A stretch of DNA of 32,000 nt from Sinorhizobium meliloti (GTDB lineage: Bacteria > Pseudomonadota > Alphaproteobacteria > Rhizobiales > Rhizobiaceae): positions 1 through 32,000 of the forward strand of contig NZ_JAGIOS010000002.1 of NCBI RefSeq assembly GCF_017876815.1, read 5' to 3'. The position numbers and the translations under genes are program-made. Positions 26,689 through 32,000 of the stretch are shown piece after piece; the first letter of the stretch is position 1; every line of letters begins with the position of its first letter. The notes under the pieces are model-generated. The model worked only from the letters and a program-made list of their open reading frames with translations. It did no database searches and was not told the origin of the DNA.

Positions 26689-28224
26689 TCAGTTCTCCAG
26701 TTTCGGAAGAATGCCCGCGGAGACGGCGGCGGCCAATCGGCCCGACGCGACGAGATCGCCCGCGGCCTTGAGGTCGTCGGCCATGTAGCGGTCTTCCTCG
26801 ATACTCGAGGAGACGCTGCGCACGGCTGCGGCAGCCTTTTGAAGTTCCGGGCTGGTGGTGAGCGGCGCGCGGAACTCGATGCCCTGCACCGCGGCGAGCG
26901 CCTCGATGCCGATGATCGAAAAGAGGTTTTCCGTCATCTGCAAAAGCCGGCGCGCACCGTGGCAGGCCATGGACACGTGGTCTTCCTGGTTCGCCGAGGT
27001 CGGCGTCGAGTCGACGGAGGCCGGATGGGAGAGCTGCTTGTTTTCCGACATCAGCGCCGCCGAAGTGACCTCAGCGATCATCAGTCCGGAGTTGAGGCCC
27101 GGCTTCTTGGCCAGAAAGGCCGGCAGGCCGTAGCTGAGCGCAGGGTCGACCAGAAGGGCGATGCGGCGCTGGGAAATGGCGCCGATTTCGCACACCGCGA
27201 GCGCGATCTGGTCGGCGGCAAATGCGACCGGTTCGGCATGGAAGTTGCCTCCGGAAACGACGGAATTGTCCGAAAGCACCAGCGGATTGTCGGTGACGGC
27301 ATTGGCTTCGATCGTCAACGTGGCTGCGACGGAGCGCAGGAGATCGAGGCAAGCGCCATCCACCTGCGGCTGGCAGCGGATGCAATAGGGGTCCTGAACC
27401 CGCTCGTCGCCCTCGATATGGCTCTGCCGAATTGGGGAGCCGGTCAGCAGCTGCCGTAAGGCGGCGGCCGTGTCGATCTGGCCCTTATGGCCGCGCAGCG
27501 TGTGAATATCCGGATGGAAGGGGGCGGAAGAGCCCATGGCCGCATCGGTCGAAAGGGCGCCGGTGATGAGGGCGGCCTGGCCGGCGCGGTGTGCGCGGAA
27601 GAGCCCGGCAAGGGCGAGAGCCGTGGAGACCTGCGTGCCGTTGATCAGCGCCAGGCCTTCCTTGGCGGCAAGCGTTACCGGCGAGAGCCCCGCCGCCTTC
27701 AATGCAGCGTCGCCTTTCATGCGTTCGCCGGCAAAGAAGGCTTCGCCATGACCCATCATCACGGCGGCCATATGGGCAAGGGGCGCCAGGTCGCCGGAAG
27801 CGCCGACCGAGCCTTTTTCGGGAATGAGCGGGATCACGCCCTTGTCCAGCATCGCTTCGATCAGCCGGACGAGCTCCAGCCGAACGCCGGAGGCGCCGCG
27901 GCCGAGCGAGATCAGCTTGAGCGCCATGATCAGGCGCACGATGTCTTCCGTGAGCGGCTGGCCTACGCCGCAGCAGTGCGAGAGGATCAGATTGCGCTGC
28001 AACGTCGCCACGTCGGAGCTGTCGATCTTGATCGAGGCCAGTTTGCCGAAGCCCGTGTTGATGCCGTAGACCGGCGCATTGCCCGCCACGATCTCGGCGA
28101 TCCGCGCTGCGGCCTTGGCAATGCCGGCATCGAAGGCGGCATCGAGGCGCGCCGGTGCGCCGGTCCAGTAGATCGTTTCGAGGTCACTGAGCGGAACGGA
28201 GCCGGGCCTGAGAATGACGGTCAT
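26689..28224 (-). CDS. hutH: Histidine ammonia-lyase
   Basis: 511 aa. Has the [14 protein letters not shown] motif (MIO-forming Ala-Ser-Gly) and QEDHVSM. The ATG overlaps the hutI stop. Confidence 0.95.
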
Positions 28225-29468
28225 CGGAGAATCCTTTCACCCTTGAAGATCCGCTCCCGAAGGGGATTGAAACCGATACGGTAGATCAATTCCGCCGGTT
28301 GATCGATGTTCCAGATGGCAAGATCCGCAGACTTGCCGGCTTCGATCGTGCCGGTCTCTCCGAGGATCCCGAGCGCACGGGCGGCCTCACGGGTAACGCC
28401 TGCGAGGCATTCCTCCAGCGTCAGGCGGAAAAGCGTCGCGGACATGTTCAAGGTGAGGAGCAGCGAGGTCAGCGGCGAAGTGCCGGGGTTGCAATCGGTA
28501 GCGATGGCGATGCGCGTTCCAGCTTCTCGGAGTGCTTCGACAGGCGGAAGCTGCTTTTCCCGGAGGGTGTAGAAAGCCCCAGGCAGGAGGACGGCGACCG
28601 TGCCGGCCTTCGCCATGGCGGCGGCTCCCGCAGCGTCGAGATATTCGAGGTGGTCGGCCGAGAGAGCGCCGTAGGAAGCAGCGAGCTTCGCGCCGCCGAG
28701 ATCCGAAAGCTGTTCGGCGTGAAGCTTCACGGGCAGGCCGAGCGACTTCGCCCTGTCGAAGACCGAAGCGATTTCCGCCGGCGAAAAGGCTATGCCTTCA
28801 CAGAAGCCGTCGACGGCGTCGGCGAGCCCTTCGGCGTGAGCTGCGGTGAGGCCTGGCAGGACGACTTCGGCGATGTAGTCGCCGTTGCGTCCGCGAAATT
28901 CCGGCGGGGTCGCATGGGCTGCGAGATAACTGGTGACGATGCGCACCGGGCGCAGGCTTTCCAGCCGGCGGGCGGCGCGCAGCATCTTGAGTTCGGCCTC
29001 GACGTTGAGACCGTAGCCCGACTTAACCTCGACGGTGGACACGCCTTCGGCGAGAAGGGTGTCGAGCCGTGGAAGTGCGGCCTCCACGAGTGCCTCGACG
29101 GAAAGGGCGTTGGTTGCCTCGACGGTCGAAGCGATGCCGCCTCCGGCACGCGCGATCTCCTCATAGGTCGCGCCTTCGAGGCGGAGCTGGAACTCCCGGG
29201 CGCGGTTGCCGCCATGGACGATATGCGTGTGGCAGTCGATCAGCGCCGGGGTGACCCAGCGGCCTTCGCAATCGAAGACCTGGTCGGCGCGAGCAAGCTC
29301 CGAAGGCAGACCGGCTTCGGGACCGGCATAGACGATCCGCTCGCCGCGAACGGCGATAACGCCGTCTTCGATGATCCCGAGTGGGCCCAGCTCCTCACGA
29401 AGTGTGGCAAGGCGTGCATTGCGCCAGAGGCTGGTTCTGGCAGGATTTGGGTTTTCGTTTCCGTCCAT
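28221..29468 (-). CDS. hutI: Imidazolonepropionase
   Basis: Start chosen at [18 protein letters not shown] (ATG 29468). Amidohydrolase signature [24 protein letters not shown] and [10 protein letters not shown]. The 77-aa upstream extension in the ORF track runs through the AT-rich promoter and into the intron 3' end. Confidence 0.9.
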
Positions 29469-29492
29469 AGGTACCGCCCTTCTTCGCCAATA

Positions 29493-29504
29493 ATGTATAT
29501 ACAT
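29493..29504. promoter_or_regulatory. HutC-type (GntR/HutC subfamily) operator candidate overlapping a putative hut promoter -10
   Basis: Perfect 12-bp palindrome ATGTATATACAT, containing GT-N-TA-N-AC, 25 nt upstream of the hutI ATG. On the minus strand, CTTGTC (29522-29517)-N17-TATACA (29499-29494) resembles the rhizobial sigma-70 consensus. Confidence 0.45.
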
Positions 29505-29586
29505 AATACCGGCGATGACAAGTGAGAAATATGATCGGTGAGATAACGCGATGGGAGCTGCCGGCCAGAAGCACGGAAACAGGATC

Positions 29587-29656
29587 GGCATAGGGGGCGG
29601 CCGTTGTGACCGCGCCCCTGCCACACCACCCGGCATGCGGGTCCGCACCGGGCGGT
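29587..29656 (-). ncRNA. Group II intron ribozyme domains V and VI (3'-terminal catalytic/branch-site hairpins)
   Basis: DV: CCGCCCGG-UGCG-GACC-CGCA-ug-CCGGGUGG, a two-part stem with a 4-nt loop and a 2-nt 3' bulge. DVI: GGCAGGGGCG...CGCCCCCU-A-UGCC with an unpaired A, then GAU at the 3' end. Confidence 0.7.
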
Positions 29657-29670
29657 TCGAAGAGTTGAGG

Positions 29671-31034
29671 TCAGGCGAGGCGGGGGATACGGAGGGCATC
29701 CATCCACCTGAGGGTTAGGACCGAATTGAGCAACATGCCGCTGTTGCGCCACCATCTGCGGCTGTTGACCGCGATCTGCCGTGCCACTTCGGGCTTGGCG
29801 CCCTTGGCAAGCAGGGCCTTGTAGGTGGTCTTGCCACGCTTCCAGTGCTTGAGCTGGATCGCGCGCACCCGGTGACGCATCCACTCCTCCAGCTCCTTGA
29901 AGAGCCTTGGAGTTTGTGCCAGCCGGAAGTAGGCTTTCCAACCCAGAACATAGACGCGCAGGCGCTCGGCCACTTCCGCCATGCTGCGCCCGCCCGAACG
30001 GCGGGTCAGTTGCCGGACGCGGCGCTTGAACGCCTTGAGCGGCTTGTCGGCCACCCGCCGCTTGACCGCGCCATCCCGGCCCCGCCAGAAGCTGAAGCCG
30101 AGGAACTTGCGGCCAAACACACTGGTAACCGCGCTCTTGCCCTCGTTGATCGTCAGGTGCAGCCGTCCGTAAAGCCGCCGCAGAAGCGCCATGACCCGTT
30201 CGCCCGCCTTGCGACTGCCAACGTAAACGTTGCAGTCGTCCGCATAGCGCACGAAGCAATGGCCCCGGCGTTCCAGTTCCTTATCCACCTCATCGAGCAG
30301 CACATTGGCCAGAAGCGGCGACAGCGGCCCGCCTTGCGGCGTGCCCATCACCCGCTCCTGGACCACGCCATGGTCCATGATGCCGCTGTTCAGATAGGCC
30401 CGGATCCGGCGGATAACCCGCTTGTCCGATATCCGTTTGCTGAGGCGGTCGATCAGGATGTCGTGGTTGACCCGGTCGAAGAACTTCTCAGGTCGACGTC
30501 CACGACAATCCGCCGGCCCGACTGCACAAGGGATTGCGCCGCAAGCACGGCCCCATGCGCACTACGGCCCGGACGGAAGCCGTGGCTGTGCTCGCTGAAA
30601 GCGGGATCAAGGAGCGGCTGCAGCACTTGCAGCAGCGCCTGCTGGATCAAGCGATCCGTCACCGTCGGGATGCCGAGCTCGCGCTCGCCGCCATCCGGTT
30701 TCGGGATCGTCACCCGTCGCACCGGCATCGGCCGGTACGTTCCCGCCAGAACCCGTTCGCGGATGTCAGGCCACGACGTGCGCAGATGAGCCGCGGTCGC
30801 CTCGATGGACAGACCGTCCGCACCAGCCGCGCCCTTGTTGGCCTTCACCCGTTTCCAGGCTCTTTGCAGGTTCTCGCGCGCCAGGGCCGCTTCCAGCAGC
30901 CCCGGCCCTGTGCTCTGCGCGTCACAGCGCGGGCAGGTCGCTTCATCGCTGCCCGGTTCAGACAGGGCTTCACCCTGTCTCCCCCCGGACCGCCCCGCTC
31001 TCGCGGGCATCTGATGCCTGGCTTCCTGCATCAC
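29671..31034 (-). pseudogene. Group II intron-encoded reverse transcriptase/maturase, disrupted by a 1-nt deletion (no En/HNH domain)
   Basis: The N-terminal ORF (30453-31034) holds RT domains 0-2 (NLQRAWKRVKANKGAAGADG, RRVTIPKPDGGERELGIPTVTDRLIQQA, HGFRPGRS). It stops soon after VVDVDL. The next frame continues EKFFDRVNHDILIDRL...GTPQGGPLSPLLANV...RYADDCNVYV...maturase X. The frames join if one G is restored in CTG(G)AGAAG, near 30489/30490. Confidence 0.85.
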
Positions 31035-31126
31035 TATGCCTCAAGCCCTCCTCTTCGTTCGGTCCTTCGCCGCGGATACGGCTACTACAACCTCTGCTGA
31101 CTTCTCGCTCCGCCGGCGCACCACAG

Positions 31127-31151
31127 AAAAACCCCGAACTTCCGTCCGGGG
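31127..31151 (-). terminator. Rho-independent terminator of the upstream MFS gene
   Basis: Minus strand: CCCCGGAC-GGAA-GTTCGGGG (8-bp stem, GNRA-like tetraloop) followed by TTTTT, 55 nt after the MFS stop codon. Confidence 0.8.
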
Positions 31152-31206: not shown

Positions 31207-32000
31207 CTATTCCGCCGCCGCAGTCGCCAGGCGCCGCCGATGGGATCGCAGTCCTGCATAAAGGACGGCGAGTGAAGCCACCGGAAACAGTGCCGCGAAG
31301 AAGCCGAGATCCGCGGCAGCCGTATTCTCGAGCACCCGTCCGCCGATCGCCGTGCCGGTCGCGATGCCGAGATAGATCGCCGAGGCGTTGAGCGACAGGG
31401 TCAAATGGGCAACCTCCGGCGCGAAGCCGACTATGCGGCTCGCCTGGGCCGGCGGAAACGCCCAACCGACGATTCCCCATGGCACCATTATGCCGATCAG
31501 CAGCAAGCCGGCGAGATCGCGCGTGAGGAAGTGCAGGCCGAAGGCGATCATCAGCGAGACCGCGAGCGCGGAGATCAGCGAAGCTGTCACCACGCGCGTG
31601 GCGCCGAGCCGGTCGGCCAGATAGCCGCTGGAGAGATTGCCGATCACCGCGCCGACCCCGAAGGCGAGCAACAGCCCCGGCAGCGCCAGTTGCGAAAGCC
31701 CGGCTCCGTCGATCGCCAGCGGGGCGAGATAAGAGATGATCATGAAGCCGCCGGTGAGATACAGAAACGTCACCATGAGCGACGAGGCCACGCCCGGACG
31801 GCCGATGGCGCCGAAGCGCTCGGACATTGTCAGCTTCGTTCCACTGAGGCCCCGCGGCAGGCGCAGCCAGAGCACGGCAGCGCAGGTGAGCCCAAGCAGA
31901 GCGACCGCCCCGAACGTGCCGCGCCATCCCCAGAAGGCGGCAATCAGCGCGCCGAGAGGCGCGCCCAGCGCCACGGCGAATGTGGTGCCGCCCACCACGA
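31207..32000 (-). CDS. MFS transporter (3'-partial view; N-terminus lies beyond the window end)
   Basis: The frame is open to the window edge. Continuous hydrophobic TM segments (GAPLGALIAAFWGWRGTFG..., LADRLGATR loop motif) are typical of MFS_1 efflux/sugar permeases. Stop TAG at 31209-31207. Confidence 0.8.
   Translation of the reverse strand, partial: VVGGTTFAVALGAPLGALIAAFWGWRGTFGAVALLGLTCAAVLWLRLPRGLSGTKLTMSERFGAIGRPGVASSLMVTFLYLTGGFMIISYLAPLAIDGAGLSQLALPGLLLAFGVGAVIGNLSSGYLADRLGATRVVTASLISALAVSLMIAFGLHFLTRDLAGLLLIGIMVPWGIVGWAFPPAQASRIVGFAPEVAHLTLSLNASAIYLGIATGTAIGGRVLENTAAADLGFFAALFPVASLAVLYAGLRSHRRRLATAAAE

What the first reader, a model, noticed from the sequence alone, without database searches (positions are those of the whole stretch)
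29584..31121. RmInt1-like group II intron remnant lacking DI-DIII, wedged between an MFS terminator and the hut promoter
On the minus strand there is an RT/maturase ORF followed by clear domain V and VI hairpins and a 3' end (...CCGAU) with a bulged branch-site A 8 nt upstream. This is an intron 3' half, not a free-standing RT gene. Only about 90 nt lie upstream of the ORF before the host terminator and the MFS coding region begin. A functional intron needs roughly 500 nt or more of DI-DIII there, so the ribozyme cannot fold or splice. The first 3' exon bases (CCTG) are the same as those following the site I recall as the RmInt1 homing site in ISRm2011-2 (GATGAGA|CCTGG). That suggests EBS3/IBS3-guided ectopic retrotransposition followed by incomplete cDNA synthesis (5' truncation). 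The remnant sits 115 nt upstream of hutI in the same orientation, so it now forms the upstream context of the hut promoter.
Basis: partly seen in the sequence, partly recalled or inferred. Interest (0 to 1): 0.7.

Follow-up and report, generated by a model that had tools for sequence, protein, structure and literature searches.

The report
Decayed terminator-targeting group II intron copy
This is a dead copy of a known class C (IIC) group II intron of Sinorhizobium meliloti, sitting in that class's usual spot just behind a transcription terminator; it lost most of its ribozyme through an internal 292-base deletion and its reverse-transcriptase gene through a frameshift, so it is an ordinary decaying mobile element and not a 5'-truncated RmInt1 relative.

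Summary
The window is S. meliloti pSymB (100% match to strain USDA1157).
- an RT/maturase ORF;
- domain V and VI hairpins supported by covariation;
- a 3' end ...CCGAU with a bulged A;
- only 90 nt ahead of the ORF;
- 115 nt to hutI.

- **Class.** The element is class C (IIC), not RmInt1-like. Its protein matches solved IIC reverse transcriptases far better than IIA or IIB ones. Domain V has the IIC CGC triad and a short distal stem. 50 of 62 related introns sit 8-10 nt behind a terminator-like hairpin, as this one does.
- **5' end.** It is not truncated. GUGCG lies directly after the MFS terminator.
- **Alleles.** 22 of 47 pSymB records carry a full 1832-nt intron at this exact site. The other 25 share one internal 292-nt deletion (intron nt 11-302) that removes domains I and II and the exon-binding site EBS1. 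Domain III remains.
- **Further decay.** The window's ORF has a -1 frameshift, and other strains carry different inactivating lesions.

A full-length copy with an intact ORF lies elsewhere on the same replicon. This is an ordinary decaying retroelement.

The parts
31207..32000 (-). 3' part of the MFS transporter gene (5' exon context); runs off the window
   Evidence: Pfam MFS_1, E = 5e-19. Annotated as MFS transporter in CP140944.1.
31127..31151 (-). Rho-independent terminator of the MFS gene: stem-loop CCCCGGAC-GGAA-GUUCGGGG (31151-31132) followed by U5 (31131-27). This is the DNA/RNA hairpin that class C introns target.
   Evidence: Fold -18 kcal/mol, z = -3.7. My terminator test gives 8 pairs, 6 of them G:C, and 10 nt from the last G:C pair to the intron. 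Conserved in empty-site relatives.
31122..31125 (-). IBS1 (UGUG), the last bases of the 5' exon
   Evidence: The copy at the second locus follows ...CCUGUG as well. EBS1 at intron nt 180-185 covaries with these bases across relatives.
29584..31121 (-). Whole intron remnant, 1538 nt. It is a derivative of an 1832-nt class C (IIC) intron.
   Evidence: Alignment with the full-length allele in ml66 and GR4. Empty site in LMB1.
31113..31121 (-). Retained intron 5' end GUGCGCCGG. It lacks one C compared with GUGCGCCCGG in every other allele examined.
31111..31113 (-). Junction of the internal 292-nt deletion. Intron nt 11-302 are missing: domains I and II, including EBS1 and the AGGAA motif.
   Evidence: The missing segment scores 109.7 bits against Rfam group-II-D1D4-3 in the full-length allele.
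31062..31105 (-). J2/3 and domain III (AGAAGUCAGCAGAGG...GAAGGAC), retained
   Evidence: Rfam RF01998 group-II-D1D4-1: 34.2 bits in the window and 40.2 bits in the full-length allele.
29671..31031 (-). Intron-encoded RT/maturase gene in domain IV, a pseudogene here. A -1 frameshift at 30488/30489 causes a premature stop at 30453-30455. The original stop is at 29671-29673.
   Evidence: The intact 453-aa form best matches GsI-IIC RT (6AR1, 437.7 bits).
29625..29656 (-). Domain V: 10-bp basal helix with a CGC triad (29654-29652), a 2-nt bulge, a 3-bp distal helix and a GACC loop
   Evidence: RNAalifold and pair counts, with compensatory changes at 2 pairs. The CGC triad and shortened distal stem are stated IIC hallmarks (PMC1702495).
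29586..29623 (-). Domain VI with a bulged UA. The putative branch A is at 29591, the 8th base from the 3' end. The intron ends ...CCGAU at 29584.
   Evidence: The CG-to-GC compensatory change appears in 23 sequences. 64 distinct distal stems occur, and 60 of 65 fold the same way.
29469..29583 (-). 3' exon: the 115-nt hutI upstream region. It holds a promoter-like site (29521 to 29492) and the 12-nt palindrome ATGTATATACAT (29504-29493). The intron leaves it untouched.
   Evidence: The sequence is conserved in the empty-site strains LMB1 and S. medicae.
28221..29468 (-). hutI (imidazolonepropionase)
   Evidence: Pfam Amidohydro_1/3. Annotated as hutI in CP140944.1.

Best explanation
The feature is a degenerate copy of the S. 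meliloti class C (IIC) group II intron, the family published as S.me.I3.

**Insertion (inferred from the family's known behaviour).** An intact 1832-nt intron ribonucleoprotein reverse-spliced into DNA just downstream of the MFS gene's Rho-independent terminator. It recognised the hairpin plus a short IBS1 (UGUG) through EBS1 (CAUG, intron nt 180-183). It was then copied into DNA by its endonuclease-less reverse transcriptase. This is the normal 'safe' target of the class: intergenic, behind a terminator and ahead of the hut promoter.

**Decay in place (shown by comparing alleles).**
- A single internal 292-nt deletion (intron nt 11-302) removed domains I and II.
- A -1 frameshift broke the RT gene.
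- In this strain one further C was lost from the 5' stub.

**Present state (inferred).** The remnant cannot fold a catalytic core, cannot bind its exons, cannot splice or move, and makes no full-length protein. It is inert DNA between the two genes. The MFS terminator and the hut promoter-like region on either side are intact. A full-length copy with an intact ORF at a second pSymB site in the same strain is the likely active member.
For: **Identity of the replicon.** 100% match to S. meliloti USDA1157 pSymB.

**Class C**
- The protein scores 437.7, 330.7 and 275 bits against the IIC RTs GsI-IIC, E. rectale and R. intestinalis. It scores 134.7 against IIB T.el4h and 131.7 against IIA LtrA.
- Pfam finds only RVT_1 and GIIM, with no endonuclease domain.
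- Domain V has a CGC triad and a 3-bp distal stem, which are the IIC hallmarks stated in PMC1702495.
- The full form is only 1832 nt, with 383 nt ahead of the ORF.
- Among relatives with 67-76% protein identity, 50 of 62 distinct upstream contexts are terminator-like, against 22 of 1233 control 60-mers. Spacing is 8-10 nt, and 10 nt in the window.
- EBS1 was found by covariation. In 43 of 61 introns it pairs with the last 4 exon bases, using 23 different 4-mers. The next best column reaches 23%.
- PMC5894124 reports a class C intron on pSymB. PMC1702495 reports that the S. meliloti class C intron S.me.I3 self-splices.

**Internal deletion, not truncation**
- GTGCG is retained directly after the terminator. 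ml66 and GR4 have 292 extra nt at the same site, scoring 109.7 bits against Rfam group-II-D1D4-3.
- 25 of 47 pSymB records carry the deletion allele and 22 the full allele.
- The empty site in LMB1 fixes both boundaries.

**Continuing decay.** Sampled deletion alleles have ORFs of 453, 341, 192 and 88 codons. ml56 has an extra 3' deletion running into the exon.

**Second copy.** L087, from the same replicon, holds a 1831-nt intron with a 456-codon ORF, also behind a terminator ending ...CCTGTG.
Against: - I made no direct alignment to RmInt1 or to a curated class C/D reference set. Class assignment rests on similarity to solved IIC RTs, RNA hallmarks, target-site behaviour and published statements.
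- Identity with the database entry 'S.me.I3' and with WP_015243078.1 is inferred, not verified.
- Rfam's Intron_gpII model (RF00029) does not detect this DV/DVI even at E <= 10. The DV/DVI call therefore rests on my own alignment.
- EBS3 could not be located by covariation.
- IBS1-EBS1 at this site is weak: 2 Watson-Crick pairs and 2 G-U pairs.
- Nothing here tests transcription, splicing or mobility.
Confidence: 0.93

Rival explanations
1. An RmInt1-like (class D) intron retrotransposed ectopically, guided by EBS3/IBS3, and was 5'-truncated because cDNA synthesis was incomplete, leaving only the 3' half.
For: Only 90 nt precede the ORF. The 3' exon begins with C, which is also RmInt1's wild-type IBS3 base (PMC4075523). 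S. meliloti carries many RmInt1 copies (PMC5894124).
Against: - The 5' end GUGCGCC(C)GG is retained at the exon junction.
- The full-length intron occupies the identical site in 22 of 47 records.
- The missing block is internal, nt 11-302.
- The protein is about 300 bits closer to IIC RTs than to IIA or IIB ones.
- Domain V has CGC and a short distal stem.
- The target is a terminator, as for 50 of 62 relatives, not an ISRm2011-2-like IBS2/IBS1 site.
Confidence: 0.02
2. The deletion allele is kept because it is useful. It could be a stand-alone RT/maturase gene serving the full-length copy in trans, or intron-derived sequence that modulates read-through or expression of the hut operon downstream.
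For: The deletion allele is common, at 25 of 47 records. Some carriers (Rm1021, RMO17, SM11) keep an intact 453-codon ORF. A review suggests that some S. meliloti intron fragments may persist as cis elements (PMC5894124). Internal outward promoters are known in IIC-attC introns (PMC3001079, abstract only).
Against: - At least three different ORF-inactivating lesions (88-, 192- and 341-codon truncations), plus a large 3' deletion, occur among deletion alleles. The coding sequence is therefore not under evident constraint.
- The only promoter-like site in the region lies outside the intron, in sequence shared with empty-site strains.
- The MFS terminator upstream is intact.
Confidence: 0.04
3. 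The short allele did not arise by simple deletion. It came from recombination or gene conversion between the two pSymB copies or with a pre-existing defective copy.
For: A dense patch of 11 differences at intron nt 862-887 is swapped between the two loci in different strains, which implies sequence exchange between copies.
Against: The junction is a clean 292-nt loss with 1 nt of microhomology, and the flanks are identical in all deletion alleles sampled. All second-locus copies examined have an intact domain I. This changes only the route, not what the element is.
Confidence: 0.05

Closest known systems
S.me.I3, the S. meliloti bacterial class C (IIC) group II intron (Zimmerly nomenclature; PMC1702495). 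PMC5894124 reports a class C intron on pSymB.
   Same: Same species and replicon. The protein is IIC-type, domain V has the CGC triad, and the insertion lies behind a terminator. The window's element is 98-99% identical to the full-length pSymB copies over the shared 1538 nt.
   Different: The window copy lacks intron nt 11-302 (domains I and II) and has a frameshifted ORF. S.me.I3 is reported to self-splice in vitro, and this copy cannot. That the name applies to this exact sequence family is my inference.
Other IIC introns: B.h.I1 (Bacillus halodurans), GBSi1, O.i.I1, A.v.I2 (Azotobacter vinelandii), GsI-IIC
   Same: Terminator stem-loop plus a short IBS1 as target, no EBS2, an abbreviated ribozyme, CGC in domain V and an RT without an endonuclease domain. 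An A. vinelandii contig (L062) carries a relative with 73% protein identity. GsI-IIC RT is the best solved-structure match.
   Different: Those are intact, studied introns. In this lineage the covarying EBS1 loop can pair with up to 6 exon bases in some members, against the 3-4 bp quoted for B.h.I1.
RmInt1 (class D, IIB3) of S. meliloti
   Same: Same host. Both are group II introns whose protein lacks an endonuclease domain, and both have C at +1 of the 3' exon.
   Different: RmInt1 recognises about 20 nt of 5' exon through IBS2 and IBS1 within ISRm2011-2 (PMC5894124, PMC4075523). This element sits behind a terminator, has IIC domain V features and an IIC-type protein. No direct alignment was made.
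FRE652 and other bacterial group II intron fragments (PMC5894124)
   Same: Non-functional intron remnants that persist across many S. meliloti strains.
   Different: The usual pattern, including FRE652, keeps DI-DIII and loses the 3' end with the ORF. Here the 5' ribozyme is lost internally, while both intron ends, DIII, the ORF, DV and DVI remain.

Membership tests
Group IIC (bacterial class C) introns | Intron-encoded protein of the class C lineage, with RT and maturase (X) domains and no endonuclease domain | tested here: met
   Best solved-structure matches are IIC RTs (6AR1 at 437.7 bits, 7UIM at 330.7, 5HHJ at 275), against 134.7 for IIB and 131.7 for IIA. Pfam finds RVT_1 and GIIM only. 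No formal phylogeny was made.
Group IIC (bacterial class C) introns | Domain V with CGC in place of the AGC triad and a distal stem 2 bp shorter (PMC1702495) | tested here: met
   C7-G8-C9 pair with G34, U33 and G32. The distal helix is 3 bp. DV is 32 nt long and invariant or compensated in 65 sequences.
Group IIC (bacterial class C) introns | Insertion just downstream of a Rho-independent terminator or other stem-loop, in the orientation of the terminated gene | tested here: met
   In the window the hairpin is at 31151-31132, followed by U5, and the intron starts 10 nt after the last G:C pair. 50 of 62 relatives pass the same test against 22 of 1233 controls. The second pSymB copy is likewise behind a terminator.
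Group IIC (bacterial class C) introns | Short IBS1-EBS1 pairing and no EBS2 | tested here: met
   This holds for the family and the full-length allele. EBS1 at nt 180-185 covaries with the exon end in 43 of 61 introns. No second covarying block was found. In the window itself EBS1 is deleted.
Group IIC (bacterial class C) introns | Abbreviated ribozyme, with an AGGAA motif in the epsilon-prime region of domain I | tested here: met
   The full allele is 1832 nt, with 383 nt before the ORF. GGGGAGGAAGCG is present in L001 at about intron nt 100-111. This region is deleted in the window.
Group IIC (bacterial class C) introns | EBS3-IBS3 single base pair for the 3' exon | tested here: inconclusive
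   No column covaried convincingly with the +1 base. 41 of 61 sites have T at +1, so many invariant A columns tie.
Functional (splicing-competent) group II intron | Complete domain I scaffold with the exon-binding sites, plus domains II-VI | tested here: not met
   Intron nt 11-302 are absent. Rfam group-II-D1D4-3 scores 109.7 bits in the full allele and is absent from the window.
Functional (splicing-competent) group II intron | Intact maturase/RT reading frame | tested here: not met
   A -1 frameshift at 30488/30489 leaves 192 codons from the ATG.
RmInt1-like (class D, IIB3) introns | Class D protein and IIB-type domain V (AGC triad, 34 nt) | tested here: not met
   Domain V has CGC and is 32 nt long. 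The protein is IIC-like. A direct comparison with the RmInt1 sequence was not possible because no RmInt1 sequence was at hand.
RmInt1-like (class D, IIB3) introns | Target recognised through IBS2 plus IBS1 (about 13 nt) and IBS3, naturally within ISRm2011-2 | tested here: not met
The 5' exon is an MFS terminator hairpin, not an insertion sequence.

The most novel reading that the evidence does not exclude
The domain I/II-deleted allele, found in about half of complete pSymB sequences and still carrying an intact RT/maturase ORF in strains such as Rm1021, is not merely neutral debris. It would act as a ribozyme-less trans-acting maturase/RT donor for the full-length copy elsewhere on pSymB, or its DIII-DVI RNA would influence read-through into the hut operon.
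Probability: 0.04. Interest if true: 0.35.

Novelty: already known. Interest (0 to 1): 0.12.

Why it matters
Scientifically it matters little.
- It is one more decaying copy of a described intron family, in a replicon sequenced since 2001.
- It is a clear worked example of how class C introns colonise the space behind terminators and then erode in place. Empty, full-length, internally deleted and doubly deleted alleles all survive at one locus within a species.
- The erosion here runs opposite to the usual pattern, which loses the 3' end and the ORF first.

For the scan it gives two practical lessons.
- A short stretch ahead of an intron ORF does not mean 5' truncation. Check for GUGYG next to a terminator.
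- Rfam's Intron_gpII model does not detect IIC DV/DVI.

Tried and rejected
- **Rfam.** The whole window at gathering thresholds gave no hits. At E <= 10 only a sub-threshold group-II-D1D4-1 hit appeared, and there was no Intron_gpII hit for DV/DVI in either the window or the full-length allele.
- **Terminator detectors.** My first two were too strict, because A-run/T-run pairing consumed the T tail. They gave 36-37 of 62. The third trims non-G:C base pairs and gave 50 of 62 against 1.8% of controls. The built-in terminator scan also missed the MFS terminator for the same reason.
- **EBS3.** Covariation gave no clear column.
- **Candidate EBS1.** I first considered CACAG at intron nt 54-58, a perfect complement of CUGUG. 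I rejected it for the covarying loop at nt 180-185.
- **Linking to WP_015243078.1.** PLSDB has no gene table for the RefSeq records, and the cluster look-up did not list that accession.
- **RmInt1 target site.**
- **RmInt1 alignment.** I could not obtain an RmInt1 sequence for direct alignment.
- **Domesticated RT.** I rejected this reading after finding several independent ORF lesions among deletion alleles.

Full report
**Where the window comes from.** The 1.9 kb around the finding is 100% identical to S. meliloti USDA1157 pSymB. It is 98-99.8% identical to pSymB of many other strains, including Rm1021, GR4 and SM11. All features lie on the minus strand, in this order:
- the 3' part of an MFS transporter gene (stop at 31207);
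- its terminator;
- the element (31121 to 29584);
- a 115-nt spacer;
- hutI (ATG at 29468) and then hutH.

**Checking the observation.**
- The RT/maturase reading frame is real. Pfam finds RVT_1 and GIIM. In this window it is split by a missing G at 30488/30489 ('gacctgagaag' against 'gacctggagaag' in strain ml66), which leaves 192 codons from the ATG at 31031.
- To test the 3' hairpins I collected 80 loci from other bacteria that encode relatives with 67-76% protein identity. I aligned the 77-81 nt after their stop codons.
- RNAalifold predicts two hairpins. On 65 distinct sequences, 99.7% of cells pair. There are 34 double-change cells against 9.3 +/- 2.1 in shuffles (0 of 500 reach that number), and partners slid by 1-3 columns pair at only 43-52%.
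- The distal stem of domain VI has 64 different sequences. Even so, 60 of 65 fold to the same shape with a bulged UA whose A is the 8th base from the end.
- Homology among all relatives stops exactly after ...CCGAU.
- An intron-less spacer in the divergent strain LMB1 is the same length as the window's two flanks joined (29 nt from GGGG to CTGG in both).

**What class of intron it is.**
- The intact protein (453 aa in ml66, GR4 and Rm1021) matches the solved IIC reverse transcriptases far better than the others. Scores are 437.7 bits for GsI-IIC (6AR1), 330.7 for the E. rectale intron RT (7UIM) and about 275 for 5HHJ/5HHL. The IIB T.el4h protein scores 134.7 and IIA LtrA scores 131.7.
- Domain V has a 10-bp basal helix containing C-G, G-U, C-G (a CGC triad), a 2-nt bulge and only a 3-bp distal helix. 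Toor et al. (PMC1702495) give exactly these two features as IIC hallmarks.
- The full-length form is short: 1832 nt, with 383 nt before the ORF. It contains the AGGAA motif.
- Nearly every relative begins GUGCGCCC(A/G)GCA... a few bases after a G+C-rich hairpin and a T run. By an explicit test, 50 of 62 distinct upstream contexts are terminator-like against 22 of 1233 control 60-mers from the same loci. The last G:C pair lies 8-10 nt from the intron in most cases, and 10 nt in the window. The window's hairpin folds at -18 kcal/mol, z = -3.7.
- A loop at intron nt 180-185 covaries with the last bases of the 5' exon. In 43 of 61 introns it pairs with the last four exon bases, using 23 different 4-mers, and the next best column reaches 23%. 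Several members pair over 6 bases. This is EBS1.
- Published work agrees. A review of S. meliloti introns lists RmInt1 and RmInt2 as class D and a separate class C intron on pSymB (PMC5894124). The S. meliloti class C intron S.me.I3 is reported to self-splice in vitro (PMC1702495).
- The position 'wedged' behind the MFS terminator is therefore this class's normal target, not an ectopic accident, and 'RmInt1-like' is not supported.

**Truncated or deleted?**
- The first bases after the terminator's T run are GUGCGCCGG, the intron's own 5' end.
- In ml66 and GR4 the same site reads GUGCGCCCGG followed by 292 further bases and then the sequence found in the window.
- Those 292 bases plus their surroundings score 109.7 bits against Rfam group-II-D1D4-3 and 40.2 bits against D1D4-1. 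The window keeps only the second motif (34.2 bits), which covers J2/3 and domain III.
- The loss is exactly intron nt 11-302, with 1 nt of microhomology.
- Among 47 pSymB records that span the junction, 25 carry the deletion and 22 the full domain I.
The intron arrived whole and lost domains I and II later, in place. Domain III was not lost.

**Further decay.**
- The window's frameshift is shared with M270, M162, L6-AK89 and HM006.
- BL225C stops after 88 codons and RCAM1115 after 341.
- Rm1021, RMO17 and SM11 still have 453 codons. This sample was chosen by length differences, so it does not give allele frequencies.
- Strain ml56 and two others carry an additional deletion from the RT region through the intron's 3' end into the exon, with GTGC microhomology.
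- The loss of one C in the 5' stub was seen only in the window's strain.
- Several independent lesions argue that the ORF in the deleted allele is not under constraint.

**Other copies.**
- The deleted 293-nt segment is present elsewhere in almost all S. meliloti pSymB records and on other replicons.
- In the window's own replicon a second locus (about 629 kb) holds a 1831-nt copy that is 99.5% identical to the ml66 intron. It has a 456-codon open frame and also lies behind a terminator whose tail ends ...CCUGUG.
- Rm1021 has an 1822-nt copy there with a 450-codon frame.
- A patch of 11 differences at nt 862-887 is swapped between the two loci in different strains, which suggests gene conversion between copies.

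**Surroundings.**
- The only sigma-70-like promoter match in the region (TTGTCA, 18-nt spacer, TACATT; 29521 to 29492) and a 12-nt palindrome ATGTATATACAT lie in the 115 nt between the intron and hutI.
- That stretch is conserved in the intron-less LMB1 and S. medicae.
- The intron therefore lies upstream of the hut control region without disrupting it, and the terminator upstream is intact.

**Verdict.** This is a degenerate, immobile copy of a known class C intron family at its canonical kind of site. The class assignment, the truncation mechanism and the targeting story are wrong. Nothing suggests a new kind of element.

**Remaining gaps.** I made no direct alignment to RmInt1 or to curated class references. 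I did not verify the identity with the database entry S.me.I3. No experimental data were available.

Noticed in passing
Outside the window: L087 2491-4321 (NZ_CP021795.1, about 627.9-629.8 kb, same replicon as the window): A second, full-length (1831 nt) copy of the same class C intron. It has an intact 456-codon ORF and lies behind a different terminator (...GGGGCCTTTTCCTGTG|GTGCG). It is probably the active copy in this strain.
   Followed up: partly
Window about 30525-30560 (intron nt 862-887); compare L001, L087, L088 and L002: A dense patch of 11 substitutions is shared by the window's copy and ml66's second-locus copy. ml66's first-locus copy, the window strain's second-locus copy and Rm1021 share the other version. 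This looks like gene conversion between the two intron loci.
   Followed up: partly
L004 1100-1170 (CP140921.1, strain ml56; also CP140883.1 and NZ_CP123006.1): A fourth allele at this locus. It has the 292-nt deletion plus a second deletion running from the RT region through DV/DVI and 10 nt into the 3' exon (junction ...GGCCGTAGTGC|CGTGCTTCTGG).
   Followed up: partly
Window 29493-29504 (minus strand): A perfect 12-nt palindrome, ATGTATATACAT, overlaps the -10 region of the promoter-like site upstream of hutI. It is conserved in S. medicae and LMB1. From general knowledge of GntR-family sites it is plausibly a HutC operator; this was not tested.
   Followed up: no
L084 1417-1520 and L071 about 1878-1910: In two relatives another copy of the intron starts directly after ...CCCGAT, or within a few bases of it. 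Introns may therefore insert in tandem behind one another.
   Followed up: no
Window 28221-29699 (mechanical 492-aa ORF); protein cluster: The 90%-identity protein cluster of the intron RT also contains many imidazolonepropionase (HutI) sequences. This is probably a clustering artefact caused by gene calls that run across the intron end and hutI.
   Followed up: no
(plasmid collection): 20-33 Escherichia plasmid records, and some from Ralstonia, Cupriavidus and Azospirillum, match this intron's DNA at 60-90% identity. Close relatives of this IIC lineage therefore travel on enterobacterial plasmids.
   Followed up: no
Window 29584-29660 and L001 3435-3511: Rfam RF00029 (Intron_gpII) gives no hit, even at E <= 10, to a DV/DVI that is strongly supported by covariation. 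The model appears not to detect this IIC lineage.
   Followed up: partly
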